A DNA stretch of 64,000 bases from Candidatus Bathyarchaeia archaeon (GTDB lineage Archaea > Thermoproteota > Bathyarchaeia > 40CM-2-53-6), in contig JBEKVV010000005.1 of the NCBI GenBank assembly GCA_049513715.1, positions 32,001 through 96,000 of the forward strand, written 5' to 3'. Below are positions 34,752-46,130 of this stretch, one piece after another (position 1 is the stretch's first letter; every line of letters begins with the position of its first letter). The position numbers and the translations under genes are program-made. Below the pieces are notes generated by a model. It was not told the origin of the DNA. It ran no database searches and saw only the letters and a program-made list of their open reading frames with translations.

Positions 34752-36155
34752 TTGAGGGAGCTGGAAGAGTACAGAACGAAGATTCGTGAAACTGACCGAC
34801 AAATGCTCTCCCTAATCCAAGAAAGGTTATCACTAGGCGATAAATTGGCGGCAGTGAAGCACGCGAAAAGCCTGCCAATAATTGATGCAACCGCAGAGCA
34901 AGCAGTTCTTGACAACTTAACAGAAACTGCAAAGACCCTTGGACTAACGACTAGTTTCGCACGGCGATTGGGAGAACTCCTAATTGAGGAATCCGTGAGA
35001 GTCCAGGATGAAGGAAAACCGAAGCAATCGAAAGACCAATTGATGAAGGAAATTTTCGAACTCATACAGAAACTGTTAGCCCAGGGTCAACGTGTCACAC
35101 GCTTTGAGATTGGAGAACCGAACTTTCCTCCGTCAACACAAATTGTACGCGCTCTGACGGATACTTTCCGCAAGAAGAAGATTGTTGGATACGGACCCGC
35201 TGCTGGTCTCCCGGAGCTGCGGAAGGCTCTGGCCGATGAACTAAGCGCCCAGCACAATTTCACAATCGACCCCGACCAGATCGTCGTAACACCGGGTGGG
35301 AGATTTGCCATATTCGCCGCCGTCACAAGTTTCGTCTCTCCCTTAGAACGCGTGGCCATTCCGCAGCCGGCTTGGCCAGCATATGAGGAATGCGTCGACT
35401 TCGCAAGGGGTCGCACAATTCCGATTAACACAACACTCGAAGACAGCTGGGAGGTTGACCTGGGAAGGCTGGAAGACGAGCTGAGGAAAGGCGTCAAATT
35501 ACTCATCCTGAACACGCCCAACAACCCTACAGGCAAGATCATACGTCAGAAAAAATTCAGGGAAATCGTAGACCTAGCAAAGAGGTATGGCACGTTGGTG
35601 CTCTCCGATGAGGTGTATGAGAGGTACGTTCACAAGAAGAGTCCAAGCATCCTAGAGAGCGGATACGAAAACTTCGTGTATATCAACAGCTTCTCCAAGC
35701 AATTCAGTCTAACAGGGTGGAGAATCGCATACCTGGTAACCACGAAACAAGCTGCTCTGAGAGTCCGCCGCGTGATTCAAACAGCAATAACCTGCGTACC
35801 CGAATTCACACAAAGAGCTGCCCTCGTTGCAATAACAAAAGGCCGTAGAGAAGCCCAACGGCAAGTCAACGATATTTTGAAGAAAGTAGACTTCACCTGC
35901 CGGGAACTGAGCAAAATCGACGTTTCCTTCTATAAGCCCGAAGGGGCTTTCTACGTCTTCCCTAAGGTTAACAGATCGAACTTTGATTCAGTCAGATTCG
36001 CAAGGGAACTTCTAGAGAAACATCATGTTAGCATAAGCCCGGGCCAGGCCTTCGGAGACTACCCAGAATTCTTCAGACTTGCGGTCTCCTTGCCCAAAGC
36101 CCAGATCCCCAGTGCCATCAAAGCCATCGGCAGGGCGATAGATGCTTGGTCGTAG
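34752..36155 (+). CDS. chorismate mutase (AroQ) / class I-II PLP aminotransferase fusion
   Basis: N-terminal LEEYRTKIRETD...ER...K...ES AroQ domain; GEP, NTPNNPTG, DEVY, SFSKQFSLTGWR. Confidence 0.88.
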   Translation: MRELEEYRTKIRETDRQMLSLIQERLSLGDKLAAVKHAKSLPIIDATAEQAVLDNLTETAKTLGLTTSFARRLGELLIEESVRVQDEGKPKQSKDQLMKEIFELIQKLLAQGQRVTRFEIGEPNFPPSTQIVRALTDTFRKKKIVGYGPAAGLPELRKALADELSAQHNFTIDPDQIVVTPGGRFAIFAAVTSFVSPLERVAIPQPAWPAYEECVDFARGRTIPINTTLEDSWEVDLGRLEDELRKGVKLLILNTPNNPTGKIIRQKKFREIVDLAKRYGTLVLSDEVYERYVHKKSPSILESGYENFVYINSFSKQFSLTGWRIAYLVTTKQAALRVRRVIQTAITCVPEFTQRAALVAITKGRREAQRQVNDILKKVDFTCRELSKIDVSFYKPEGAFYVFPKVNRSNFDSVRFARELLEKHHVSISPGQAFGDYPEFFRLAVSLPKAQIPSAIKAIGRAIDAWS

Positions 36156-37027
36156 CGACCGTCATCGGTGGAGCGGGACGAATGGGCGCATGGTTCGCCA
36201 ACTTCCTAAAGAAAAACGGGTACAGAGTCATCATACAAGACAAGAACTCCACCGCTGCTAGGGCACTCGCCAGAAAGGAAGGCTACCAATTCATCAAATC
36301 ACAGAATCAGGCAATCTCATTGGGCCAAATAATCGTACTAGCCACACCCACGAATGCAACATTGTCCTTGCTAAGTCGTACGAGCCTAATGTTCAGTCGG
36401 GAAAAACTTTATGTCGAAATTTCCTCAGTTAAAGAACCAGTCAGGACAACCATTCAACTATTACGCCGAAGGATTGGCATTCTAAGCGTTCATCCGATGT
36501 TCGGCCCAGGGTCTCAGACACTGTCAGGAAAAGCCATGCTCGTTACATCTGAGCCAGCTAATAGTAAAATGGCCGAAGCGCTGTTGAAACTGTTCCGAAA
36601 GAAAGGCGTAATGCTATTCCGGTTTGACCCGGAACGCCATGACCAACTGATTGCGCTGGTTCTGGCCCTACCTCATTTCGTCAACAACATCTTCATGAAT
36701 ACCCTGAAGACAATTGGAGAGAACCCTAACCGCCTTCGTAAAGTAGCGGGCACGACCTTTAGACTGCAGTTGCTCACTGCAGAAGCAATCAGTCAGGAGG
36801 ATACTGAGAACGAGCTTTCAATATTGATCGACACTAAGGAAACCCTGACGGTACTGAGGCTATTCCTCAAACAATGCACTGCAGCGGCTAAGGCTGTCGA
36901 AAAAGGTCAACGCAAACGTTTGCGCGAGACTCTCGTTAATGGACGAAGCTACGTTCAAAGAGACCGGGTGTTCGCAACTGCATATAGACGATTTAATGCA
37001 GCTGTTGAAGCGTCTAGTTCTGTTTGA
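36146..37027 (+). CDS. tyrA: prephenate/arogenate dehydrogenase
   Basis: GGAGRMG, ISSVK, HPMFGP, HD...LPH. Confidence 0.92.
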   Translation: MVVATVIGGAGRMGAWFANFLKKNGYRVIIQDKNSTAARALARKEGYQFIKSQNQAISLGQIIVLATPTNATLSLLSRTSLMFSREKLYVEISSVKEPVRTTIQLLRRRIGILSVHPMFGPGSQTLSGKAMLVTSEPANSKMAEALLKLFRKKGVMLFRFDPERHDQLIALVLALPHFVNNIFMNTLKTIGENPNRLRKVAGTTFRLQLLTAEAISQEDTENELSILIDTKETLTVLRLFLKQCTAAAKAVEKGQRKRLRETLVNGRSYVQRDRVFATAYRRFNAAVEASSSV

Positions 37028-38141
37028 TGATCCTGGATTGTTTCTTGCCCATTACGCGTGGGAGCACACCTGCACGCAGGCAATGGTCCGCAAGCACTAT
37101 TGCCACAGCAGATTCTACCACTGGGACGGCTTTTGGAACAATGCACGGGTCATGGCGCCCAGAAACCTGGACGATCGTGTCTTTCATTTCCTGAAGGTTG
37201 ACAGTTTGCTGTTGCCTAGGGATTGAGGATGGCGGCTTGAACCCTACGTGAACCACAACAGGCATTCCGTTTGATAGACCACCTAGGATTCCTCCGGAGT
37301 TGTTGGTTAGGGTGACGACCTTGCCTTCGTGAACGGTGTACGGGTCGTTATTCTCTGAACCTTTCACGGCAGAGGCCTGAAAACCTAACCCTACCTCGAA
37401 GCCTTTCACTGCGGGTATGCTGAAGGCGATTTTAGCGAGATCTGCGTCTAAGCTGTCAAAGAATGGTTCCCCGATCCCAGGAGGTACACCATCGGCGACA
37501 CATTCTACAACTCCTCCAACGCTATCGCCAGACCTGCGAGCCTGAAGAATCACTTCTCTCATTTTCTCTGCTGTTTCTGGGTCTGCGCAGCGGACTGAGT
37601 TTGCGAACGCGTTCTTCTTTATAATGTCATGGGGCAGTGTCCGGCCCAACTTTACTGTGTGAACTTGAATTGTGTGCGCAAAAACCTCGACTCCAATGGT
37701 GCTCAGTAGCTTCCTGGCTATGGCCCCAGCCATGACGATGGGGACGGTCATTCTACCGCTGGCTTGTCCGCCTCCCCGAAGGTCACTGAAATCACCGTAT
37801 TTTATTCGCATTGGAAAATCCGCATGCCCCGGTCTGGCTACGGACTTAAGTTTCTCATAGTCTTGGGACCTGACATCTTTGTTCAATGTTAACAGGGCTA
37901 CAGGTGCGCCGGTTGTGTGACCCTCGAAGATGCCCGAGAGAATCTGAACTTCGTCCTTTTCTCGCCTAGCTGATGTCATTGCTGGATCTGGTGGAATTCT
38001 TCTGTCCAGCTCTCGTTGAATGTCTTCTGTGTTCAACGAAAGCCCGGCGGGGCAACCGTCGACCACAGTCGCCACTCCGGGGCCATGGCTTTCACCGAAG
38101 ACTGTGACGCAGAATTCCTTTCCGAATGTGCTGTCACCCAT
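37014..38141 (-). CDS. aroC: chorismate synthase
   Basis: GESHG, RPGHAD, RGGGQASGR, NNSGGILGG, GRHDPC. Confidence 0.97.
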   Translation of the reverse strand: MGDSTFGKEFCVTVFGESHGPGVATVVDGCPAGLSLNTEDIQRELDRRIPPDPAMTSARREKDEVQILSGIFEGHTTGAPVALLTLNKDVRSQDYEKLKSVARPGHADFPMRIKYGDFSDLRGGGQASGRMTVPIVMAGAIARKLLSTIGVEVFAHTIQVHTVKLGRTLPHDIIKKNAFANSVRCADPETAEKMREVILQARRSGDSVGGVVECVADGVPPGIGEPFFDSLDADLAKIAFSIPAVKGFEVGLGFQASAVKGSENNDPYTVHEGKVVTLTNNSGGILGGLSNGMPVVVHVGFKPPSSIPRQQQTVNLQEMKDTIVQVSGRHDPCIVPKAVPVVESAVAIVLADHCLRAGVLPRVMGKKQSRIIKQN

Positions 38142-39402
38142 TCACTTCAACTCCCAATGCACGCATGTCATCGAAGAAGGTTGGGTATGATTTGCTTACG
38201 CATTCAGCGCCTTGAATTTCAACTCTGCCATCTGCGCCCAGGGCAGCAACTGTGAGCGCCATTGCAATTCTGTGGTCACCATGCGACTGAACAACTCCTC
38301 CTCTCAACGAGGCGGGACCATGAATGCGAAATCCATCCTCTGTCTCTGTGACGTTTGCGCCCAATGCCACTAATTCATCGGAAATACTGGTCAATCGATC
38401 AGACTCTTTGAATCGCAACCTTGAGGCCCCGCAGATCGTTGTTTCCCCATCAGCGTAGCATCCAAGAACTGCCGCCACAGGCCCCAAGTCTGGAGAGTCA
38501 TGAATATCAATTCTAGCGGCCTTCAGACCCACGCCTTCGACCAATACCCCATCATCAACGAGCCTGACGGCTGCCCCCATTTGAGACAGAAGCCCAAGAA
38601 CAACGCCGTCCGGTTCATGGCTAGGTGACGCAAGGCCTCGAACTACAACGCGTGAATTCGTTATAGCTGCGGCGGAGAGTGGGAACGCAGCCGAGGAGTA
38701 ATCTCCCGAAATCGAATGCTCAGCCGAAACGTACCTCTCATTCGGAGTAACTTCAAAAAATGACATCTCACCATCGGTTCTAGCGTGAACCCCATGTTTT
38801 TTCATGGCATCCATTGTGAGCGAGACATATCCTCTTGATTCCAAACGCGTTGTCAAATCCAATCGTAAACCCTTCTTCATGAGAGGCCCGGCGAGGATTA
38901 GGCCTGAGATGAACTGGGAACTGACATCCCCCCGAACAGAAACAGAACCCCCCTCTGGCACTTCACCATCCAATACAACCGAATCATCGTTTACGGTGAG
39001 CTTCACTCCGACTTGTTCCATTGCTGACGCCAAGGGTTGCAAAGGCCTTTTCAGGAGATTACATTTCGCTCTCAACGCCACCCTTCTGCCCGTAAGGGAT
39101 ACTATTGGAATTAGGAAACGCAGGGTAACACCTGATTCACCGCATTGAATTTCCTCTTGCGGTGGATTCGGGAAACCTTTGCCTTCCACGTTCCAAATCC
39201 TCCCTTGTCGAATTATCTTTGCTCCTAAAGCGGAGATGCATTTAGCGGTCGCTTCTGTGTCATCACAAGAGAGTGGATTGTCGATCCTTGTAGTGCCTTT
39301 CGAAAGGAGACCAGTGAAAAGTGCGCGGTGAGTTTGCGCTTTTGATGGAGGAGCGGTTATCGTACCCGAGAGTTGGCGCTTTGGAGTTATTGTGACGTTC
39401 AA
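38134..39402 (-). CDS. aroA: EPSP synthase
   Basis: PPSK, GESGVTLRF, SSQFISG, KESDR, DHRIAM, KSYP. Confidence 0.97.
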   Translation of the reverse strand: MNVTITPKRQLSGTITAPPSKAQTHRALFTGLLSKGTTRIDNPLSCDDTEATAKCISALGAKIIRQGRIWNVEGKGFPNPPQEEIQCGESGVTLRFLIPIVSLTGRRVALRAKCNLLKRPLQPLASAMEQVGVKLTVNDDSVVLDGEVPEGGSVSVRGDVSSQFISGLILAGPLMKKGLRLDLTTRLESRGYVSLTMDAMKKHGVHARTDGEMSFFEVTPNERYVSAEHSISGDYSSAAFPLSAAAITNSRVVVRGLASPSHEPDGVVLGLLSQMGAAVRLVDDGVLVEGVGLKAARIDIHDSPDLGPVAAVLGCYADGETTICGASRLRFKESDRLTSISDELVALGANVTETEDGFRIHGPASLRGGVVQSHGDHRIAMALTVAALGADGRVEIQGAECVSKSYPTFFDDMRALGVEVNG

Positions 39403-40280
39403 TTCATCACCCTCAGCACATGAGCTTTCTCGAAGTTTGGACGAGCGTCAATAGTATATCCCGGAATTAGGTTCCACGAGCGAAGAACGGCCTCAACTTT
39501 CGAGCTTGGAGCAATAGCTACGACTGCGGGCCCTTTCCCGGACAAACCTGCCGCTATGGCCCCTGCCCGAAGTGCCTCTGTGATGGGGCGAGCGCTATAG
39601 CCCAAAGCTTCACAGTATAGCAGTCCGTTCAATGTCAGCGAAAACCAATGGTTGCCTTTCAAGGCTTCTCGGTGGGCCGTTTGGACGAATCGCCTTATCC
39701 TCCTGAACTCGGTCGGGTCAATGTCCCTTGTGTACTTCTTAGAATTTGGGATCTGCACTAGTGCGTGCAATCGACGGTTGGGATTGAACCGTTTCAGTAC
39801 TCGCCGCCGTTTATTGTCCGTTATTACCCCGCCGCCAAAGTAGCAGGCGCACGCATCATCGAACGCTCCAGTAAGAGTAACCCCTGCTTGAAGGCTGGCG
39901 TCGACCGCAAGCCTCACCGTATCTAGGTCACCAGTTTTCTTATTCAGAGCTCTGATTGTGGCCAAAGCCACGGCGTTGCTTGCAGCACTACTGCTCTTCA
40001 AACCGACAGCAACAGGTATGTTCGATCGGGTTTCCACGAATGCTCCAAATTGATGATGGACTCTGAACTTTCGGAAGACACGACGAACGGTGGTTTCAAT
40101 TAGGGTTGTGTCCTCATCAGGATGAGTCAAGCTGCGTCCTTTTATTACCCCTACTTCGCTGCTCAGTTCAACACGAGCCTTTGTCCAGAGAGCTATGCCT
40201 AGGGCTGCGCCTCTTCCTGTTGCCATGGCATTGACTATGGTGACAGCCCCATGGCTCACGGCCTCAGCTACTCTTAGCAT
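39399..40280 (-). CDS. aroK: archaeal (GHMP-type) shikimate kinase
   Basis: GAVTIVNA, GLKSSSA, TGAFDDA, GLSGKGP. Confidence 0.95.
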   Translation of the reverse strand: MLRVAEAVSHGAVTIVNAMATGRGAALGIALWTKARVELSSEVGVIKGRSLTHPDEDTTLIETTVRRVFRKFRVHHQFGAFVETRSNIPVAVGLKSSSAASNAVALATIRALNKKTGDLDTVRLAVDASLQAGVTLTGAFDDACACYFGGGVITDNKRRRVLKRFNPNRRLHALVQIPNSKKYTRDIDPTEFRRIRRFVQTAHREALKGNHWFSLTLNGLLYCEALGYSARPITEALRAGAIAAGLSGKGPAVVAIAPSSKVEAVLRSWNLIPGYTIDARPNFEKAHVLRVMN

Positions 40281-41169
40281 CTGTCACCGCCATCACATTT
40301 TGAGCAATTGCGCCTCGCATTTCCGACATTGGTGCCTTCCTTCCCGTCCACAACTCAAAAGAAGCTGCACCTTGACTCACTAGCATGTCAAGACCGTTGA
40401 TCGTTTGTGCGCCCGCCGATTCAGCAGTTCTGAGGAGCTTGGTTTGAATTGGCTTGTAGACAATGTCCAGGACCCATTGCCCGGCACTAATTGAGCCTTC
40501 ATGGACGGGCGGATTGTTTCTTCCATCCATACCCATGGAAGAAGCGTTTATGATTACATCGGATCCTTTCACCAAGAGCTGTAGTTTAGGATTCGAAATT
40601 GCAGTATGGGAGATGTTGACCGGGAATTTCTTGTGTAATTGATTCTGCAGACGCGTGGCCTTTGTGAGGGTTCTATTTGCGAGCAAGATCGTTCTGACAC
40701 GTGACGCCATCGCGAAAGCGATAGCCTTACCAGCGCCCCCAGCGCCGAACAAGAGAACCGACTTTCCCTCGAGTATTGCACCAGCCCCCCTGAATGCGTT
40801 TACCGCACCGATTCCATCCGTATTGTAGCCAAGCAACGAACCATTTCGGTTTACGACCGTGTTTACTGAACCGATCTCAGCCGCCGTGCGGTCTAACTTG
40901 TCTAGATATCTCACCACCCTGAGCTTGTAAGGTGACGTAACGTTGAACCCCTTCACACCCACATCGCGAAGACCCTCGACCGCAGATCCGAGGGTGGATT
41001 GTTTCACTCGAAATGGCACGTAAACAGCATTCATGCCGATCGACCGGAACGCGGCGTTTTGAACCAGAGGGCTCAGCGAATGATCCACAGGATCTCCGAT
41101 AATGGCGTAGACCGCGGTCTTCCCGGAAATCGTTAGGTTACTGTACTCCAAGGCTCTGCCACGCGTCAC
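40264..41169 (-). CDS. aroE: shikimate dehydrogenase
   Basis: HSLSP, NVTSPYK, NTD, GAGGAG, GLDMLVSQ. Confidence 0.96.
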   Translation of the reverse strand: MTRGRALEYSNLTISGKTAVYAIIGDPVDHSLSPLVQNAAFRSIGMNAVYVPFRVKQSTLGSAVEGLRDVGVKGFNVTSPYKLRVVRYLDKLDRTAAEIGSVNTVVNRNGSLLGYNTDGIGAVNAFRGAGAILEGKSVLLFGAGGAGKAIAFAMASRVRTILLANRTLTKATRLQNQLHKKFPVNISHTAISNPKLQLLVKGSDVIINASSMGMDGRNNPPVHEGSISAGQWVLDIVYKPIQTKLLRTAESAGAQTINGLDMLVSQGAASFELWTGRKAPMSEMRGAIAQNVMAVTDAKSS

Positions 41170-41800
41170 GAAGCCTGTCTATGCTCAGTTGTCCATCCGC
41201 CGTTGCGGAATCATCGGTGAGGGCAGCGAAGGTAAATTCTGCGCCGAAGAGTGGGGACAGAACCCTGGACGGCACACCGATAGAGCCCATGGCGAAGGAA
41301 ACGAGTTTCGTGTTTGCTGATTTGCTTTCAAGAAATCCAAGGACAGTTAGGTTGTCACGAGGGTGTCGTGCGGTCGTTACAATTTTGAAAAGATCACCAC
41401 GGCTCTTCCGCTCAGACATCAATATTCCCTGCAAATCGCTCAGCGTTGGCGTGCCAAAATAGTCGTGAAAAGAGATGATTACTTTCGACCCGCAGTCATG
41501 AGCCTGCGGGACTAAGGTGCTAGTTGAAGGATATGCCGCATCAATGTCGACGTACTCGAAGCCACTCGCAGCGGCGGTGAGAAGCACTTTCTCCTTTTCT
41601 ATGCTCTCTCTGTTTGACTTGTCGGTAGCAATTGCCGGAAACGGTTTCACCTTTCCAATTCTCTCAACGACATCAGCATCCCGTACTGAATCTAAGCGGA
41701 ACTCAACCAAGTCTGGGTTCTTTTCAGAGATTCGTTCTATTAGTTGCTCGACATTGTCCGCGTCATCTAAAACGACGGACAGACAGACTCGGCATTTCAA
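41138..41800 (-). CDS. aroD: type I 3-dehydroquinate dehydratase
   Basis: VEFRLD, ISFHD, KIV, FAMG, SR, ADGQ. Confidence 0.93.
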   Translation of the reverse strand: MKCRVCLSVVLDDADNVEQLIERISEKNPDLVEFRLDSVRDADVVERIGKVKPFPAIATDKSNRESIEKEKVLLTAAASGFEYVDIDAAYPSTSTLVPQAHDCGSKVIISFHDYFGTPTLSDLQGILMSERKSRGDLFKIVTTARHPRDNLTVLGFLESKSANTKLVSFAMGSIGVPSRVLSPLFGAEFTFAALTDDSATADGQLSIDRLRDAWQSLGVQ

Positions 41801-42855
41801 CGTTCAATCACCATTTCATCTGCCACTAATGTGCCGAAATGACGGCCACCACTTTCTATCCGGACCAGAACCTCGTCGTCCGGTTTCAGTTCCGATACGG
41901 ATTTCGAGCTTCCATCAGACATCAACCGAACGGTCTCAGCGTTCTGAACAATCAGAGAGAAGCTGTGCCCACTTGATTCCGTCTGTATGACCATCATAGG
42001 CCTTCTTTCGATTTTGACCCTTCCAACGTGGCCCGTTCTTACTACGCCATTTCTGTTTGCAATTAGGACTTCATCGCCCGCCTTCAACTCGGACAGGTAT
42101 CGCGTTCTGTGGCCTGGTGTAAGTACGTACGAGGAGACTGGCCCCGCGTTCACTCTAAACGGCCTGGGGTCGACATGTGGGTTTCTGTGAACCTCCGCCT
42201 CGACTAGGAAAAGACCGGCGGATTGAGAACCTACAAGCATCCCTTCGCCGGGGTCCATCAGTTCGCATGTGTCGACGCAGACCCTTGTGCCCAGCCCGAT
42301 TGGCTTGACAGAGACCACTTTGACCTTGTTTAGCACAACCGGTTCTTCGATTTGCTTTACGAGGCGTTCCATTTCTTCTATTTCAGTTGACGTTTGTGGC
42401 GCGATGACTACGCCGTCCACGCCAAGCTCCAGTGTTTGCAGTGCAATCTTCGCTTCACTTTGGTCAGATGTGTCTGCGATTACCTCAGCTTTACCTCGCG
42501 TTTGGGCAATGAGATTCTCTAGTGGAATGATTTTCCAATCAGGACACCGAACTATTAGGTAGCGGACGCCTTTGCCAGCAAGCTGCAAGGCTATTTTCTC
42601 CGCCGCACTGTCTTTGACGGTGATTTCCACGGCCGCTTCTTTTGGAACCTGTTTGTCGAGCAGTTCATCACTTGAGAATAGTTTGATTTCTGAATCACCA
42701 TCTCTTGCGGCGGTTCTTAGTTTGAGGTTTGATACGAGCGGAAGATCTTGCTGGTCGAGCATGGCAACCGTGCAACGGCCCTGAGCAGCTTTGAGAAGCT
42801 CGTGTTTCTGTTCAATCGGAATGCTGGGGTCGAGCCTTAGCCAGAGCTGCTTCAT
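41797..42855 (-). CDS. aroB': 3-dehydroquinate synthase II (archaeal)
   Basis: WKIIPLENLIA, RVCVDTC, RPFRVNAG, QNAET, RHFG. Confidence 0.96.
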   Translation of the reverse strand: MKQLWLRLDPSIPIEQKHELLKAAQGRCTVAMLDQQDLPLVSNLKLRTAARDGDSEIKLFSSDELLDKQVPKEAAVEITVKDSAAEKIALQLAGKGVRYLIVRCPDWKIIPLENLIAQTRGKAEVIADTSDQSEAKIALQTLELGVDGVVIAPQTSTEIEEMERLVKQIEEPVVLNKVKVVSVKPIGLGTRVCVDTCELMDPGEGMLVGSQSAGLFLVEAEVHRNPHVDPRPFRVNAGPVSSYVLTPGHRTRYLSELKAGDEVLIANRNGVVRTGHVGRVKIERRPMMVIQTESSGHSFSLIVQNAETVRLMSDGSSKSVSELKPDDEVLVRIESGGRHFGTLVADEMVIER

Positions 42856-43643
42856 AGCGCGGACTCCAACATTTTCATCGCTTCTTTAGCGTTCGCACCA
42901 TCATGCACTATTGCCGCGAGAGCTTTGCTCATTGCTTCGGGGTTCTTATGTTGGAAGACGTTCCGCCCGAACGACAGCCCAGCAGAGCCCGCCTTTATAG
43001 AACCCTCCGCGAGCTCGAATACCTCAGAGTCGTTCTTCATGCGTGCCCCACCCGCGACAACTATCGGAACGGGGCACCCTCGAAGTACCTTGCGAAAACT
43101 CTCCACATCACCCGTGTAGACTGTCTTCACTATGTCTGCTCCTAATTCGGCGCCTATCCTTGCGGCGTGCGCAACCTCTTCGACCCCATTCTCGTCTTTT
43201 ATGTTTGGGCCTCTGGGATACATCATGGCAAGTAGAGGAATACCGTAGGAATCACATTCCTCCGACAGGCCGCCAAGGAATTCGAGCATTTTGTCTTCCT
43301 CCTCGGCCCCAATATTGAGGTGAGCAGAAACAGCATCCGCACCCAACCTGATGGCCTCCTCAACGGTGCAAACTCCAACCTTCAGGTTGGGTTTTGATCC
43401 GAGTTTCGTCGAAGCGGAAACGTGCACGATTAGCCCGGCATTGTGAGTGTCGACTCTCTTAGCGATGCCCTTGTGTACAAGCACGGCGTCCGCACCGCCC
43501 TTCACGACGAGTTTTACGGTTTCTTGCATGTTCTCTAGCCCCTGAACTGGACCGACCGTTATGCCATGGTCCATCGCAATGATGAAGGTCCTAGAGTCGC
43601 TTCTGACGAATTTTCGTAGCCGCCTAGTTTTTCCAGATTCCAT
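42852..43643 (-). CDS. aroA': 2-amino-3,7-dideoxy-D-threo-hept-6-ulosonate (ADH) synthase
   Basis: DhnA-type aldolase motifs [25 protein letters not shown]; adjacent to aroB'. Confidence 0.92.
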
Positions 43644-43659
43644 TTTTCCACTTCACCCT

Positions 43660-44691
43660 TCACAAGTAACCTTGAGATTTCATCGATTCAGCGATTAGAA
43701 TCGCGCAGCCAGCAGCACCGCGAATCGTGTTATGGCCGAGCGCCACGTACTTGACGCCATCAAACACGGTGTCCTTCCGTATCCTACCAACAACAACTGC
43801 CATGCCTCGTCCTTCAGCCCTGTCGAACCGCGGTTGTGGGCGATCCGGCTCCTGCCTGACTACGACCGGTTTCTCAGGAGCTGAGGGCAACCTGAGTTTC
43901 TGGGGCTCTGCCGCAAAATTCCCCATTGACTCAGCTATTTCTTCAGGGCTGGCCTGTTTCTCAGTCTCGACAAATACTGCCTCTGTATGACCGTCAATAA
44001 CCGGAACACGATGACAACTTGCCGAAACCTTGAAGCCAGCGGATTTGCCCGCCTCCCCGAGGATCTTCTTAGTTTCACGCTCAACCTTCCCCTCCTCGTC
44101 CTTGATGAAGGGGACGATGTTGTCGATTATGTCAAGAGACGCGACGCCTGGGTATCCCGCCCCGGACACTGCTTGCATGGATGACATGACGACGTTTCGG
44201 ATCCCGTAGCAGACATGAATTGGTTTCAGCGAGAGTGTGAGGACGGCAGTGGTGCAGTTCGGATTTGTGATTATCGCGCCGTCCCATTTCCGTTCCCGTC
44301 TTTGTTGGTCAATCAGTGAAAGATGATCAAAGTTGGCTTCTGGGTTCATGAGCGGAACGTCAATATCCATTCTGTGTGCGGCGGCATTGCTTACGACCGC
44401 GTAACCTGCTCGCGCAAAACTTTCTTCTACTTTCAGGGCTTCGTCAGACGGTAGGGCCGAGAACACCACGTCGGCATCAACCTCTTTAGGATCTGTCGGC
44501 TGGACTGTTAGCTCGCCAATTTTCTGTTTCAGCTGGGTTTCCATTCGCCAGTTGACGGCATCTTTGTAGACCGTGCCGGCAGATCTATCGGACCCGGTCA
44601 GTGAGGCGATTTCGAACCATGAATGGTCGTTCAGTAATTGGACAAATCGTTGCCCAACTAGCCCAGTTGCGCCCAGTATTGCTGCTTTCAC
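43660..44691 (-). CDS. asd: aspartate-semialdehyde dehydrogenase
   Basis: GATGLVGQ, NPNCTT, QAVSGAG, HNTIRGAAG. Confidence 0.97.
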   Translation of the reverse strand: MKAAILGATGLVGQRFVQLLNDHSWFEIASLTGSDRSAGTVYKDAVNWRMETQLKQKIGELTVQPTDPKEVDADVVFSALPSDEALKVEESFARAGYAVVSNAAAHRMDIDVPLMNPEANFDHLSLIDQQRRERKWDGAIITNPNCTTAVLTLSLKPIHVCYGIRNVVMSSMQAVSGAGYPGVASLDIIDNIVPFIKDEEGKVERETKKILGEAGKSAGFKVSASCHRVPVIDGHTEAVFVETEKQASPEEIAESMGNFAAEPQKLRLPSAPEKPVVVRQEPDRPQPRFDRAEGRGMAVVVGRIRKDTVFDGVKYVALGHNTIRGAAGCAILIAESMKSQGYL

Positions 44692-44692
44692 C

Positions 44693-46060
44693 TTAAAGTT
44701 CCCCTTTCACAACTTGTTTAATCAAAGTCATTGCTTGCTCTTTCTCGTCCCACGAAACAAAGACTAAGATGCTTGAGGCCAAGGTCAGTAATCCGAAGAT
44801 GTTGATTCCGTTTTCTTGGAGGCGTTGAGACATCTTCCCAATTATTCCAGGCGTATCTTCCAGCCCGACGCCTTTCACCTTCAAGAACGCCAAATCGAGT
44901 TGAACGGCCATGGCGAGGCTTTCGCCGTGGCCTGTTACGACATCGTGGATATAGGTGAGCAATGAGTTGGATGGGCTTTGAGGTACGTAAAAGATTACGG
45001 AATCGAAATTCGCGGATAAACCGTTGAGTGTCGAATGGTTTCGGATTTCTTTCACAAGGTTGGCTAGTATGGATGGGTTTTCCGAGATGCCTTTGCCAGC
45101 AATTGTCACTGCCATAGATTGTGTGTTGCTTGCGAAGATTACCTCAATCTCGCTTGAGATTCCGCCAGTAATGATCGTTCCGTCGCCTTCTAAGTCGTCT
45201 TTCCTATGATTAATCACTCTGACCGGGATGTTCGGGTCCTTGTATCTCAATGCTTTTCTATGGATGAATTTCGTTCCCGAGTCAGCTAGCCCAATCAGGG
45301 TTCTAACATCAATTCTGTCAAGTTTCTTTGCGTTTGGGATGAGCTTAGGGTCGGCTGACAGTATGCCGTCCGCGTCCGTCACCAGGACGACTTCATCTGC
45401 CCCGATAGCCTTGGCTATTATGAAGGCGGTCGTGTCGCTTCCCCCGCGGCCGATTGTACTTACCTTGCCAGCGGTCGAACGTCCAATGAAACCCGCAATC
45501 ACGGGAACGGTTCCCCAATCCAGAAGTGGGATAACATGCTCGCGAACCTTCTGCAAGCATAGTTCGAGGATTGGGTTCGCGTCTGAGAACTGGTCGTCGG
45601 TTAAGATTGGCCAATCTGGGTCGGATGGATCGAAGTACCTTGTGTCAAGGCCTTCGGCTTTCAAGGCTGTTGTGAAAACCCTGACGCTTGTCCGTTCACC
45701 CATCGCAATGACATCGTCAAGGTCTGTCTTGTCCGGCTCCTTTCCCGCGTCATGATTGATCAATCCGATTAACTGGTCAGTCATCTTGCCCATGGCTGAG
45801 ACTACGACCACAAGCCTCGTGCCTTTCCTGCATTCCTTTGCAATCAGTTGAGCTGCTTTCGTGATTTTGTCCTTATTTGCTAAGCTTGAGCCGCCGAACT
45901 TGACAACCAGTCGCCTATTCTTTTGGATTTCAACGGCTACTGGTTTCTGCTCACTAAGTGTCTGAAGCGTAGTGTTTGCAGAAAGGTTAGTTTGTGGAGA
46001 GCGGGGCGCATGAGAGCCAGTAGTGATCACCATAAATGTGACCACCGAAAATGTAACCAC
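44693..46060 (-). CDS. lysC: aspartate kinase (true start uncertain; frame overlaps the leader ORF)
   Basis: VKFGGSS, VVSAMG, GRGGSDTT, TDADG, DP; C-terminal ACT-like repeats. Confidence 0.93.
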   Translation of the reverse strand: MVTFSVVTFMVITTGSHAPRSPQTNLSANTTLQTLSEQKPVAVEIQKNRRLVVKFGGSSLANKDKITKAAQLIAKECRKGTRLVVVVSAMGKMTDQLIGLINHDAGKEPDKTDLDDVIAMGERTSVRVFTTALKAEGLDTRYFDPSDPDWPILTDDQFSDANPILELCLQKVREHVIPLLDWGTVPVIAGFIGRSTAGKVSTIGRGGSDTTAFIIAKAIGADEVVLVTDADGILSADPKLIPNAKKLDRIDVRTLIGLADSGTKFIHRKALRYKDPNIPVRVINHRKDDLEGDGTIITGGISSEIEVIFASNTQSMAVTIAGKGISENPSILANLVKEIRNHSTLNGLSANFDSVIFYVPQSPSNSLLTYIHDVVTGHGESLAMAVQLDLAFLKVKGVGLEDTPGIIGKMSQRLQENGINIFGLLTLASSILVFVSWDEKEQAMTLIKQVVKGEL

Positions 46061-46073
46061 TCATTTGTTCCAT
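45987..46073 (-). CDS. putative aromatic-rich leader peptide MEQMSGYIFGGHIYGDHYWLSCAPLSTN
   Basis: ATG at 46073 preceded by GGGGTG SD (5-nt spacing) and a TATA-like box; 3 Tyr, 1 Phe, 1 Trp within 13 codons; heads the aromatic operon. Confidence 0.7.
   Translation of the reverse strand: MEQMSGYIFGGHIYGDHYWLSCAPLSTN
46017..46061 (-). repeat. three tandem 15-nt units AGTGGTTACATTTTC / GGTGGTCACATTTAT / GGTGATCACTACTGG
   Basis: Read directly from the reverse complement; units end in TTC (Phe), TAT (Tyr), TGG (Trp). Confidence 0.9.
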
Positions 46074-46113
46074 TCTTACACCCCACGGTGTTCCCCGCAT
46101 CCCGCAAGGGCGG

Positions 46114-46130
46114 CTTAAAAGAGTTCCTCA
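46114..46130 (-). promoter_or_regulatory. putative promoter (TATA box) of the aromatic operon
   Basis: Minus strand GAGGAACTCTTTTAAG about 40 nt upstream of the leader ATG. Confidence 0.55.

What the first reader, a model, noticed from the sequence alone, without database searches (positions are those of the whole stretch)
45987..46121. Aromatic-sensing leader with three tandem Phe/Tyr/Trp cassettes overlapping aspartate kinase at +1
Seen: on the minus strand, a TATA-like box (46114-46121), then a GGGGTG SD, then ATG 46073 open a 28-codon ORF MEQMSGYIFGGHIYGDHYWLSCAPLSTN (TAA ends 45987) directly ahead of the lysC-asd-aroA'-aroB'-aroD-aroE-aroK-aroA-aroC operon. Its core is three 15-nt units AGT GGT TAC ATT TTC / GGT GGT CAC ATT TAT / GGT GAT CAC TAC TGG, ending in Phe, Tyr and Trp, one per pathway end product. 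The kinase frame is +1 relative to the leader, opens exactly at the first unit (TGA immediately before 46060) and stays open about 50 codons to VKFGGSS; its only ATG/GTG/TTG codons before that motif lie inside the repeats. Established: bacterial attenuator leaders are rich in the cognate amino acid, and the prfB +1 frameshift cassette is SD, 3 nt, P-site codon, slow A-site codon (AGGGGG UAU CUU UGA). Each unit here has that spacing (GGTGGT/GGTGAT, 3 nt, codon, aromatic codon), and ATT T to TTT in units 1 and 2 parallels CUU U to UUU. Inference: a hungry-codon +1 frameshift or attenuation switch that expresses the operon on aromatic starvation; I know of no such described archaeal system. Unit 3 (TAC TGG) is a poor slippage site, and plain initiation at ATG 46033 is an alternative.
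Basis: partly seen in the sequence, partly recalled or inferred. Interest (0 to 1): 0.92.

Follow-up and report, generated by a model that had tools for sequence, protein, structure and literature searches.

The report
Aromatic-codon leader overlapping aspartate kinase
A tiny conserved reading frame carrying Phe, Tyr and Trp codons lies on top of the start of an archaeal aromatic amino-acid operon, one base out of frame with the first enzyme, and looks built to let ribosomes short of these amino acids slip into the enzyme's frame, a kind of amino-acid sensing not yet described in print.

Summary
On the minus strand a TATA box, an SD and ATG 46073 open a 28-codon ORF built of three 15-nt units ending in Phe, Tyr and Trp codons. 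The aspartate-kinase frame is +1 to it and open from 46060.

It is not chance. In 45 distinct relatives (one genus of Bathyarchaeia-labelled archaea) promoter, start, leader stop and frame relation are kept. The ~45-codon link to the kinase has 0 stops in 1553 codons, against 76 and 90 in the other frames.

The middle unit is invariant: GGTGRT (complementary to the 16S 3' tail), 3 nt, NTT, TAY in 45 of 45. The Phe unit is shift-prone in 24 of 45; the Trp unit hardly ever.

The same module heads trpE (Trp codon, 25 of 25 genomes of the order, no conserved start in the enzyme frame) and a citramalate-synthase-like gene (Ile codon, 21 of 21 loci).

Best reading (about 0.55): a ribosome-based amino-acid sensor working by hungry-codon +1 frameshifting. 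Main rival: internal initiation at ATG 46033 or the GTG codons, modulated by leader translation. Nothing is shown experimentally.

Earlier notes of this scan report the same system on other DNA. My literature searches found no description.

The parts
46114..46121 (-). Archaeal TATA box CTTTTAAG of the operon promoter
   Evidence: TTTTAA is present at the same place in 45/45 relatives. CTTTTAAG is nearly invariant in the 18-genome alignment.
46079..46084 (-). Shine-Dalgarno-like GGGGTG of the leader ORF, 5 nt before ATG 46073
   Evidence: An SD-like word lies at this place in 38/45 relatives. The 16S 3' end of the genome is ...GGATCACCTCCT.
45987..46073 (-). Leader ORF: 28 codons plus TAA, MEQMSGYIFGGHIYGDHYWLSCAPLSTN. 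A second in-frame ATG lies at 46064.
   Evidence: A start codon lies within 27-39 nt of the cassette-2 P codon in 44/45 relatives. The stop sits at the same codon in 31/45. The codon there is TAA 20, TAG 12, TGA 9 and never TGG.
46047..46061 (-). Cassette 1 (Phe): AGTGGT-TAC-ATT-TTC
   Evidence: The A-site codon is TTC/TTT in 39/45 and CAC in 6/45. The P-site codon is NTT in 24/45.
46032..46046 (-). Cassette 2 (Tyr): GGTGGT-CAC-ATT-TAT, the invariant core. ATG 46033 of the kinase frame overlaps the Tyr codon.
   Evidence: GGTG 45/45; 5th base G 29 / A 16; 6th base T 41 / C 4; NTT 45/45 (ATT 25, GTT 15, CTT 5); TAY 45/45. ATT, GTT and CTT make up only 32, 29 and 16% of Ile, Val and Leu codons in this genome.
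46017..46031 (-). Cassette 3 (Trp): GGTGAT-CAC-TAC-TGG. The hexamer is a perfect match to the 16S tail; the P-site codon is not shift-prone.
   Evidence: TGG in 36/45. The P codon is TAC in 28/45 and otherwise varied.
46022..46046 (-). Potential 9-bp RNA hairpin. Cassette-2 hexamer plus spacer pairs with cassette-3 hexamer plus spacer. The loop holds ATT TAT G, that is the shift site and ATG 46033.
   Evidence: 93.7% of cells are paired over 44 distinct sequences, with changes on one side only and no compensatory pair. It may be a by-product of the palindromic GGTGATCAC.
45908..46016 (-). Linker of the kinase frame: about 36 poorly conserved Ser/Thr/Pro/Gln-rich codons joining the cassettes to the kinase domain
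   Evidence: 0 stops in 1553 codons of this frame, against 76 and 90 in the other two. There are eight different lengths, all equal to 1 mod 3. The region is variable with in-frame indels.
44693..46060 (-). Aspartate kinase open frame (455 codons from GTG 46060). The AA_kinase domain starts at residue 50 (VVKFGGSS from 45907).
37014..44691 (-). Rest of the operon: asd, ADH-synthase-type aldolase, DHQ synthase II, aroD, aroE, GHMP-type shikimate kinase, EPSP synthase, chorismate synthase. The ORFs are tightly packed or overlapping.

Best explanation
This is the translated regulatory leader of the aspartate-kinase/shikimate operon of a Bathyarchaeia-type archaeon. The leader ORF starts about 45 nt after the TATA box and is made of 15-nt cassettes. 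Each cassette has four parts: a hexamer complementary to the 3' tail of 16S rRNA (GGTGRT), a 3-nt spacer, a P-site codon ending in TT, and an aromatic codon beginning with T (TTC, TAY, TGG).

When charged Phe- or Tyr-tRNA (perhaps also Trp-tRNA) is plentiful, the ribosome reads through and stops 11 codons after the Trp codon, making only the short peptide. When the aromatic aminoacyl-tRNA is scarce, the ribosome waits with an empty A site. The peptidyl-tRNA on NTT then re-pairs one base forward on TTT. The rRNA-mRNA duplex, which sits 2 nt closer than at normal starts, helps this. The ribosome then continues in the +1 frame, which runs without a stop through a ~36-codon linker into aspartate kinase and, by close coupling, the rest of the operon.

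Shown here:
- the leader and its cassettes are conserved;
- the kinase frame is translated from the cassettes onward;
- the frame relation is fixed;
- third-codon positions are held by something other than the peptide.

Inferred: that ribosomes pause at the aromatic codons, that they shift +1 there, and the direction of regulation. The Tyr cassette is the only one fully equipped in all relatives.
For: (1) The leader is a real ORF. In 45 distinct relatives the start is kept (44/45). The stop falls at the same codon in 31/45 and is written TAA, TAG or TGA but never TGG.

(2) The kinase frame is translated from the cassettes on. It has 0 stops in 1553 linker codons against 76 and 90 in the other frames, and all eight linker lengths keep the +1 relation. 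Aspartate kinases of other families of the order that lack the leader have upstream open frames of only 14-33 codons; some show an ATG 8-12 codons before VKFGG. Here the figure is 43-59.

(3) The cassette anatomy fits an SD-stimulated +1 shift. The 16S tail is GGATCACCTCCT. The hexamer is GGTG, then G or A (both pair with U), then T, in 41-45 of 45. The spacer is 3 nt, whereas GTGAT lies 5 nt and GGTGA 6 nt before confident ATG starts in this genome.

(4) The P-site codon is NTT in 45/45 while its first base changes freely (ATT 25, GTT 15, CTT 5). Synonymous ATC, ATA, GTC and so on never appear, although NTT makes up only 16-32% of these codons genome-wide. The peptide cannot explain this. Re-pairing on TTT does.

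(5) The same module appears at other operons with the cognate codon. For trpE it is ATG RGG NAT NNN NTT TGG in 25/25 analysed genomes of the order. The enzyme frame is +1 and is closed by TGA on the ATG in 9. It has no canonical start at all in 7, and starts at scattered positions in the rest. For a citramalate-synthase-like gene it is NTG GGT GAN NNN NAA ATY in 15 and ...TTT ATC in 6 of 21 loci, again +1. The last two bases of the P codon match the first base of the sensor codon: TT|T for Phe, Tyr and Trp, AA|A for Ile.

(6) A 2016 review states that no natural case of hungry-codon frameshifting making a starvation-specific trans-frame protein is known (PMC5009743, passages read). So the mechanism is established in principle but unreported as a natural switch.
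Against: - No direct evidence. The only RNA run holding the locus gave two short contigs inside the kinase gene, and no proteomic or ribosome data could be consulted.
- In this operon the kinase frame does have canonical starts inside the cassettes. GTG is present in 45/45 because GGTG contains it. ATG 46033 lies 7 nt after GGTGGT, within the range seen at real starts. Direct initiation therefore cannot be excluded.
- Cassette 3 lacks a shift-prone P codon (TAC in 28/45). Cassette 1 lacks one in 21/45. Phe is His in 6/45, and Trp is absent in 9/45.
- In trpE the bases upstream of the proposed shift site vary mainly at the wobble positions of the enzyme frame (GGN ATH). That would fit translation of that frame from just after the ATG, meaning an earlier shift or near-cognate initiation.
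- The conserved position of the leader stop is not required by the model.
- SD-stimulated +1 shifting has no precedent in archaea that I found.
- The counts come from related, non-independent genomes.
Confidence: 0.55

Rival explanations
1. Overlapping-uORF control without recoding. The kinase is initiated directly at ATG 46033 or the GTG codons inside the cassettes, using the preceding GGTGRT as its SD. Translation of the leader (or the cassette hairpin) merely raises or lowers access to these starts, depending on where ribosomes pause.
For: Canonical GTG codons lie in the kinase frame in 45/45, and ATG in 14/45. ATG 46033 is 7 nt after GGTGGT, within the observed spread of SD spacings. A hairpin that buries these codons is predicted in most relatives (93.7% of cells paired). 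In the citramalate-synthase-like gene a GTG of the enzyme frame lies 4 nt after the leader start in most loci.
Against: The universal GTG lies 10 nt after the hexamer, which is rare at real starts. A ribosome paused at any of the three aromatic codons would cover these starts, so starvation would repress the operon, the wrong direction. The model does not explain NTT in 45/45, nor the TT|T and AA|A rule. It cannot work for trpE (no canonical start in 7/25 and none conserved), nor for five citramalate-synthase-like loci without any start, although these carry the same module.
Confidence: 0.22
2. Bacterial-type transcription attenuation. Pausing in the leader decides between a terminator and an antiterminator structure ahead of the kinase.
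For: It is a short ORF with cognate codons directly after the promoter. A run of five T follows the leader stop in 4 of 18 genus genomes.
Against: RNAalifold finds only one conserved hairpin and no alternative pairings. A candidate SD-to-C-rich helix is paired in only 32.7% of cells. The fold z-score of the leader is -1.48. The T-run is absent in 14 of 18. The leader overlaps the translated kinase frame instead of preceding it. No Rfam family matches at gathering score.
Confidence: 0.06
3. The repeats are DNA operator sites. The palindromes GTGATCAC / GTGGTCAC, 15 bp apart, would bind a dimeric repressor, and the reading frames would be incidental.
For: GGTGATCAC is palindromic, and the two copies are conserved at the nucleotide level in all codon positions.
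Against: The sites lie well downstream of the TATA box, 68 to 99 bp after its first base, which is unusual for archaeal repressors (my knowledge, not tested). This does not explain the conserved leader start and stop, the aromatic codons, the open +1 frame, or the occurrence of one half-module with a different sensor codon at trpE and the citramalate-synthase-like gene. The motif is unique in the genome.
Confidence: 0.04
4. The hydrophobic N-terminal extension of the kinase (VVTFSVVTFMVITTG...) is a functional protein segment, and the leader frame is a by-product of its codons (or the leader peptide itself is a functional small protein).
For: Some changes are conservative or silent in the kinase frame (V/I; ACA/ACG/ACC). 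The extension is present in all genus members.
Against: TAT/TAC is silent in the leader but gives Met/Thr in the kinase frame. The leader stop is selected (never TGG). Two unrelated enzymes (TrpE and the citramalate-synthase-like protein) would have to need similar N-termini. The rest of the extension is unconserved and of variable length.
Confidence: 0.05

Closest known systems
prfB (release factor 2) autoregulatory +1 programmed frameshift of bacteria
   Same: The layout is the same: a hexamer pairing with the 16S 3' tail, a 3-nt spacer, a P-site codon that re-pairs on UUU (NUU_U), a slowly decoded A-site codon, and the full-length product in the +1 frame with the zero frame ending soon after.
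   Different: The A-site codon is a sense codon for the pathway's own end product, not a stop codon read by the gene's product. The sensed quantity would be aminoacyl-tRNA, not a release factor. The cassette is repeated three times with different sensor codons. It sits in a leader at the head of a nine-gene operon, and the host is an archaeon. Frameshifting here is not demonstrated.
Bacterial leader-peptide attenuators (trpL, pheL, hisL type)
   Same: A short ORF just after the promoter of an amino-acid biosynthetic operon, carrying codons for the end products. The ribosome is the sensor of tRNA charging.
   Different: There are no terminator/antiterminator alternatives and no Rfam match. Each cognate codon occurs once instead of in runs. 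The leader overlaps the first enzyme's translated frame by design. The output would be a change of reading frame, not of transcription.
Hungry-codon +1 frameshifting (yeast Ty1 CUU_AGG_C; starvation-induced shifts studied in E. coli)
   Same: A +1 slip of a peptidyl-tRNA on NUU when the next codon is slow to decode for lack of its tRNA (PMC5009743, passages read).
   Different: Ty1 relies on a constitutively rare tRNA and makes a fixed ratio of products. The E. coli cases are errors under artificial starvation. Here the shift would be an evolved switch that feeds back on synthesis of the missing amino acid. The review says no such natural example is known.
Antizyme +1 frameshift (polyamine sensing, eukaryotes)
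   Same: A metabolite level sets the efficiency of a +1 shift that is needed to make the regulator or enzyme of that metabolite's own pathway (recalled; mentioned in PMC5009743).
   Different: It has a stop codon in the A site, different stimulators (pseudoknot, nascent peptide), eukaryotic ribosomes and the opposite sign (abundance induces the shift).

Membership tests
prfB-type SD-stimulated +1 frameshift cassette | Internal element complementary to the 3' tail of 16S rRNA just upstream of the shift site | tested here: met
   The 16S 3' end is GGATCACCTCCT. The cassette-2 hexamer is GGTG 45/45, then G 29 / A 16 (both pair with U), then T 41 / C 4. Cassette 3 in the window is GGTGATC, a 7-nt perfect match.
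prfB-type SD-stimulated +1 frameshift cassette | Spacer of 3 nt between that element and the P-site codon, shorter than at initiation sites | tested here: met
   The spacer is 3 nt in 45/45 by construction of the repeat. In 429 confident ATG starts of this genome, GTGAT peaks at 5 nt and GGTGA at 6 nt from the ATG.
prfB-type SD-stimulated +1 frameshift cassette | P-site codon whose tRNA can re-pair one base forward (CUU_U type) | tested here: met
   Cassette 2 has NTT followed by T in 45/45. Cassette 1 has it in 24/45, and cassette 3 in at most 2/45. So it is met for the Tyr cassette only in all relatives.
prfB-type SD-stimulated +1 frameshift cassette | A-site codon is the stop codon recognised by the gene's own product (autoregulation) | tested here: not met
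   The A-site codons are sense codons TTC, TAY and TGG, and the downstream gene is aspartate kinase. Not a member of the prfB family; the resemblance is in mechanism only.
prfB-type SD-stimulated +1 frameshift cassette | Full-length protein encoded in the +1 frame; zero frame terminates shortly after | tested here: met
   The kinase frame is +1 in 45/45, with 0 stops in 1553 linker codons. The leader stops 6-16 codons after the cassette-2 P codon.
prfB-type SD-stimulated +1 frameshift cassette | Trans-frame product actually made | not testable with these tools
   No proteomic or ribosome-profiling data. The RNA contigs cover only part of the kinase gene.
Leader-peptide transcription attenuator (trpL/pheL type) | Short translated ORF with codons of the regulated amino acids directly after the promoter | tested here: met
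   the leader is conserved; Tyr codon 45/45, Phe 39/45, Trp 36/45.
Leader-peptide transcription attenuator (trpL/pheL type) | Mutually exclusive terminator and antiterminator hairpins followed by a U-run | tested here: not met
   Only one conserved hairpin. The second candidate helix is paired in 32.7% of cells. A T5 run follows the stop in 4 of 18.
Leader-peptide transcription attenuator (trpL/pheL type) | Match to a curated leader RNA family | tested here: not met
   Rfam 15 at gathering thresholds gives 0 matches in the 64-kb window.
Leader-peptide transcription attenuator (trpL/pheL type) | Leader ends before the first structural gene begins | tested here: not met
   The leader (46073-45987) lies inside the open, translated kinase frame (from 46060).

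The most novel reading that the evidence does not exclude
Bathyarchaeia (and, by earlier notes of this scan, other archaea) use a portable 15-nt cassette as a general amino-acid homeostat. The cassette consists of an rRNA-tail complement, a 3-nt spacer, a shift-prone codon and one codon for the end product. A ribosome short of the cognate aminoacyl-tRNA slips +1 out of a leader ORF and thereby becomes the ribosome that translates the biosynthetic operon. The aro/aspartate-kinase leader strings three such cassettes (Phe, Tyr, Trp); trpE and the citramalate-synthase-like gene carry one each (Trp, Ile). This would be the first natural amino-acid-sensing programmed frameshift and the first ribosome-based amino-acid sensor described in archaea.
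Probability: 0.5. Interest if true: 0.95.

Novelty: new variant of a known kind. Interest (0 to 1): 0.86.

Why it matters
How archaea sense amino-acid supply is largely unknown. Leader-peptide sensors are textbook for bacteria, but my searches found none reported for archaea. A 2016 review of recoding states that no natural use of hungry-codon frameshifting to make a starvation-specific protein is known.

If the reading is right, this small and sharply defined element gives a directly testable case. The cassette is 15 nt long, modular, and has a predictable rule: the last bases of the P codon match the first base of the sensor codon.

It also bears on annotation. Aspartate kinase, TrpE and the citramalate-synthase-like protein of these lineages would be mis-started or called pseudogenes by standard gene callers.

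Tried and rejected
- RNA evidence. The one RNA run with part of the locus gave two contigs of 152 and 253 nt inside the kinase gene, and a second RNA run gave none. This says nothing about the transcript start or the leader.
- Pattern scan of genome contigs with GGTGNTCACNTTTAYGGTG. Nearly all were bacterial chance matches; only three archaeal loci (L073, L074, L096) carried the leader. The pattern was too short for that collection.
- A long-range helix between the leader's SD and the C-rich stretch after the Trp codon. It was predicted in several single folds but was paired in only 32.7% of cells in one register. Mean duplex z was -0.6 against shuffles. Rejected as a conserved structure.
- Genome-wide search of this assembly for other short ORFs with a start-less long +1 frame. 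It gave 33 hits, 8 with an SD-like word, none convincing.
- A crude scan for Trp-, His- or aromatic-rich mini-ORFs gave only noise.
- No comparable leader was found before pheA (normal TTG start), before the chorismate-mutase/aminotransferase-tyrA operon, or before two TPP-enzyme genes.
- The upstream ATG 46100 as leader start: not conserved.
- Literature: five searches found no description.
Full report
**The observation**

On the minus strand CTTTTAAG lies at 46121-46114. GGGGTG lies at 46084-46079, five bases before ATG 46073. The ORF MEQMSGYIFGGHIYGDHYWLSCAPLSTN ends with TAA at 45989-45987.

Its core is three 15-nt units:
- 46061-46047, AGTGGT TAC ATT TTC;
- 46046-32, GGTGGT CAC ATT TAT;
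- 46031-17, GGTGAT CAC TAC TGG.

Tandem Repeats Finder sees a period-15 array here. The long ORF 44693-46060 is +1 to the leader and is closed by TGA 46063-46061. It runs 51 codons to VVKFGGSS. Its only ATG/GTG/TTG codons in that stretch are at 46060, 46045, 46033 and 46030.

Pfam confirms the operon: aspartate kinase with ACT domain, aspartate-semialdehyde dehydrogenase, a DeoC/LacD aldolase (the archaeal ADH-synthase type), DHQ synthase II, dehydroquinase I, shikimate dehydrogenase, a GHMP kinase, EPSP synthase and chorismate synthase. The kinase domain begins at residue 50 of the ORF.

The window has no Rfam match at gathering score and no tRNA. An in-frame ATG at 46100 lengthens the leader in this genome only.

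**Who carries it**

The window is part of an 11-contig, 2.79-Mb assembly. Runs holding the DNA are wetland and peat metagenomes. Public records with the same leader are titled Candidatus Bathyarchaeota/Bathyarchaeia.

The kinase has a match at E <= 0.001 in 40 of 41 related genomes searched. The 17 other same-genus loci fetched are 73-80% identical, and all but two of them keep an open frame of 450-463 codons, against 405 for the query.

A scan of metagenome contigs added 80 loci. Of these, 59 had the kinase motif with at least 260 nt upstream. After removing identical copies, 74 distinct upstream regions remained of 88. Of those, 49 are of the genus type.

Four were dropped before counting. 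L012 has a 1-nt insertion in the linker. L198, L228 and L265 lack the exact anchor pattern, although their kinase-frame peptides show the same core. The counts below are on the remaining 45. They are related genomes, not independent trials.

**Conservation**
- TTTTAA is in place in 45/45.
- An SD-like word occurs in 38/45.
- A start codon lies 27-39 nt before the cassette-2 P codon in 44/45. The exception, L004, has an extra 15-nt unit.
- Cassette 2 is invariant in design: GGTG 45/45; fifth base G 29 / A 16; sixth base T 41 / C 4; spacer CAC 38; P codon NTT 45/45 (ATT 25, GTT 15, CTT 5); A codon TAY 45/45 (TAT 14, TAC 31).
- Cassette 1 has TTC/TTT in 39 and CAC in 6. Its P codon is NTT in 24.
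- Cassette 3 has TGG in 36, TGA in 1 and Ser codons in 8. Its P codon is TAC in 28 and otherwise varied.
- All three aromatic codons occur together in 31/45.
- The leader stops at the same codon in 31/45. The codon at that place is TAA 20, TAG 12, TGA 9 and never TGG. The stop itself is therefore selected.

**Both frames are read**

The linker between the cassettes and the kinase domain is poorly conserved and rich in Ser, Thr, Pro and Gln. It comes in eight lengths, yet all keep the kinase +1 to the leader. The kinase frame has 0 stops in 1553 codons, against 76 and 90 in the other two frames.

Kinases of other families of the order that lack the leader have upstream open frames of only 14-33 codons, some with an ATG 8-12 codons before VKFGG. 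Translation of the kinase must therefore begin in or before the cassettes.

Within the core neither frame shows clean wobble periodicity. The three variable positions of cassette 2 are the R of the hexamer, the first base of NTT and the last base of TAY.

Gly is always GGT (19% of Gly codons genome-wide). The Ile/Val/Leu codon always ends in T (32, 29 and 16%). The peptide cannot explain this. A nucleotide-level requirement can.

**What the nucleotides fit**

The 16S rRNA of this genome ends in GGATCACCTCCT. GGTGAT(C) is its complement, and the G/A alternation keeps pairing with U.

In 429 confident ATG starts of the genome, GTGAT peaks 5 nt and GGTGA 6 nt before the ATG. NTT followed by T lets the peptidyl-tRNA re-pair on TTT.

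**The same module at other operons**

I found this before consulting earlier notes. Upstream of trpE, all 25 analysed genomes have an SD, then ATG (TTG once) RGG NAT NNN NTT TGG. There were 26 loci, of which one lacked my anchor; they comprise 15 of the genus and 10 of other genera and families.

The TrpE frame is +1. It is closed by a TGA overlapping the ATG in 9 genomes. It has no canonical start before the conserved LLES region in 7, and starts at scattered non-homologous positions in the others. Its Phe codon is TTT in 25/25, which keeps TGG in the leader frame.

The leader is NTG GGT GAN NNN NAA ATY in 15 and ...TTT ATC in 6, with the enzyme again +1. Five genus loci have no canonical start in the enzyme frame.

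So the sensor codon follows the pathway: Phe/Tyr/Trp for the common aromatic path, Trp for trp, Ile for citramalate. The last two bases of the P codon match the first base of the sensor codon, TT|T or AA|A. That is what a slip model predicts and what no initiation model requires.

**Structures**

RNAalifold finds one conserved element. It is a 9-bp hairpin between hexamer plus spacer of cassette 2 and of cassette 3, with the shift site and ATG 46033 in the loop. Over 44 distinct sequences 93.7% of cells pair, but all changes are one-sided and there is no compensatory pair.

Because GGTGATCAC is palindromic, the hairpin may be a by-product. It could also keep the internal starts closed in the absence of a leader-translating ribosome.

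A second helix (leader SD with a C-rich stretch after the Trp codon) is not conserved: 32.7% of cells paired, mean z -0.6. The leader as a whole folds no better than shuffles (z -1.48). A T5 run follows the stop in only 4 of 18. Bacterial-type attenuation is thus not supported.

**Weighing the mechanisms**

The +1 shift at hungry codons explains:
- the fixed frame relation;
- the rRNA-complementary hexamer with wobble-tolerant variation;
- the 3-nt spacer;
- NTT_T;
- the cognate codons;
- the start-less enzyme frames at trpE and the citramalate-synthase-like gene;
- the right direction of control.

Against it:
- Nothing is shown experimentally.
- This kinase frame has GTG and, in 14/45, ATG codons inside the cassettes, with ATG 46033 at a tolerable SD distance.
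- The Trp cassette, and about half of the Phe cassettes, lack a shift-prone P codon.
- In trpE the bases just after the ATG vary like wobble positions of the enzyme frame (GGN ATH), which hints at an earlier shift or a near-cognate start.
- The conserved leader stop is unexplained.

I put the frameshift reading at about 0.55, internal initiation modulated by the leader at about 0.2, and the rest lower.

**Literature and earlier notes**

Five full-text searches found no description of such leaders in archaea or of amino-acid-sensing frameshifts (listings and abstracts seen).

In the recoding review PMC5009743 I read the passages on hungry codons and archaea. It says such frameshifting could make starvation-specific trans-frame proteins, but 'no examples are known'. 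It lists only a few archaeal frameshift cases, none of this kind.

Earlier AI notes of this scan describe the same kind of leader before aromatic, branched-chain, histidine, tryptophan and citramalate-synthase genes of other Bathyarchaeia and of methanogen-related archaea, also read as +1 frameshift sensors. Other notes describe Trp-codon mini-ORFs on trp operon starts in further archaea. They agree with my reading but are not independent evidence.

**Verdict**

The finding is real, conserved and specific. It is a ribosome-read aromatic sensor at the head of the operon, most likely acting by a +1 change of frame. It is a new variant of known kinds (prfB-type recoding combined with leader-peptide sensing), unreported in print as far as I could search.

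Noticed in passing
whole assembly G000 (outside the window): Pfam searches find no TrpE (PF00425), TrpA (PF00290), histidinol dehydrogenase (PF00815) or HMGL-like (citramalate/isopropylmalate synthase, PF00682) gene in this 99.4%-complete, 8.8%-contaminated assembly. A tblastn with a relative's TrpE also finds nothing. In relatives the trp operon lies about 28 kb from the kinase. Either a biosynthetic block is missing from the bin, or this organism is auxotrophic while keeping the Trp codon in its aro leader.
   Followed up: partly
L040-L065 (trpE loci of relatives), e.g. L040:1200-1400: In the five same-genus trpE loci that were aligned, a 30-nt promoter block with two TGTAC-like words next to the TATA box (…TTTTTGTACGCTGTAGCTTTAAATA…) precedes the Trp-codon leader by about 60 nt. 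It may be an operator for a Trp repressor acting on top of the leader.
   Followed up: no
window 34752-37027 (+): Convergent with the operon end lies a two-gene unit: a chorismate-mutase-like N-terminus fused to an aminotransferase (34752-36155), then a prephenate-dehydrogenase-like gene (36146-37027, PF02153). No aromatic leader precedes it.
   Followed up: partly
L004 (same-genus relative), leader region: One relative has a fourth 15-nt unit (…GGTGGC TAC ATT TTC GGTGAC TAC ATT TAC GGTGAG…). This shows that whole cassettes are gained by tandem duplication.
   Followed up: no
L012 and L018 (same-genus relatives): L012 has a 1-nt insertion in the linker that breaks the kinase frame. The kinase match of L018's genome contains 2 TGA codons. 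These could be assembly errors, decay, or further recoding.
   Followed up: no
L020 and L023 (other family of the order): L020 carries a variant leader (…LFGDGVYTDHIYEY…) with Phe, Tyr, Tyr cassettes and a 73-codon open kinase frame. L023 has a leader-like ORF (…RIFGDFVYF…) about 290 nt upstream, whose +1 frame is not continuous with the kinase.
   Followed up: partly
window 46015-46049, run X17: A 650-nt contig of another organism in the same metagenome matches only the 35-nt cassette core and diverges on both sides, as expected for a relative's leader.
   Followed up: no
whole assembly G000: Besides this kinase, only one weak amino-acid-kinase-fold match was found in the genome (C1:351437-351607, E 8e-6). 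Several relatives have a second aspartate-kinase-like gene at about 30% identity. The kinase under aromatic control may be the only aspartate kinase of this organism.
   Followed up: no
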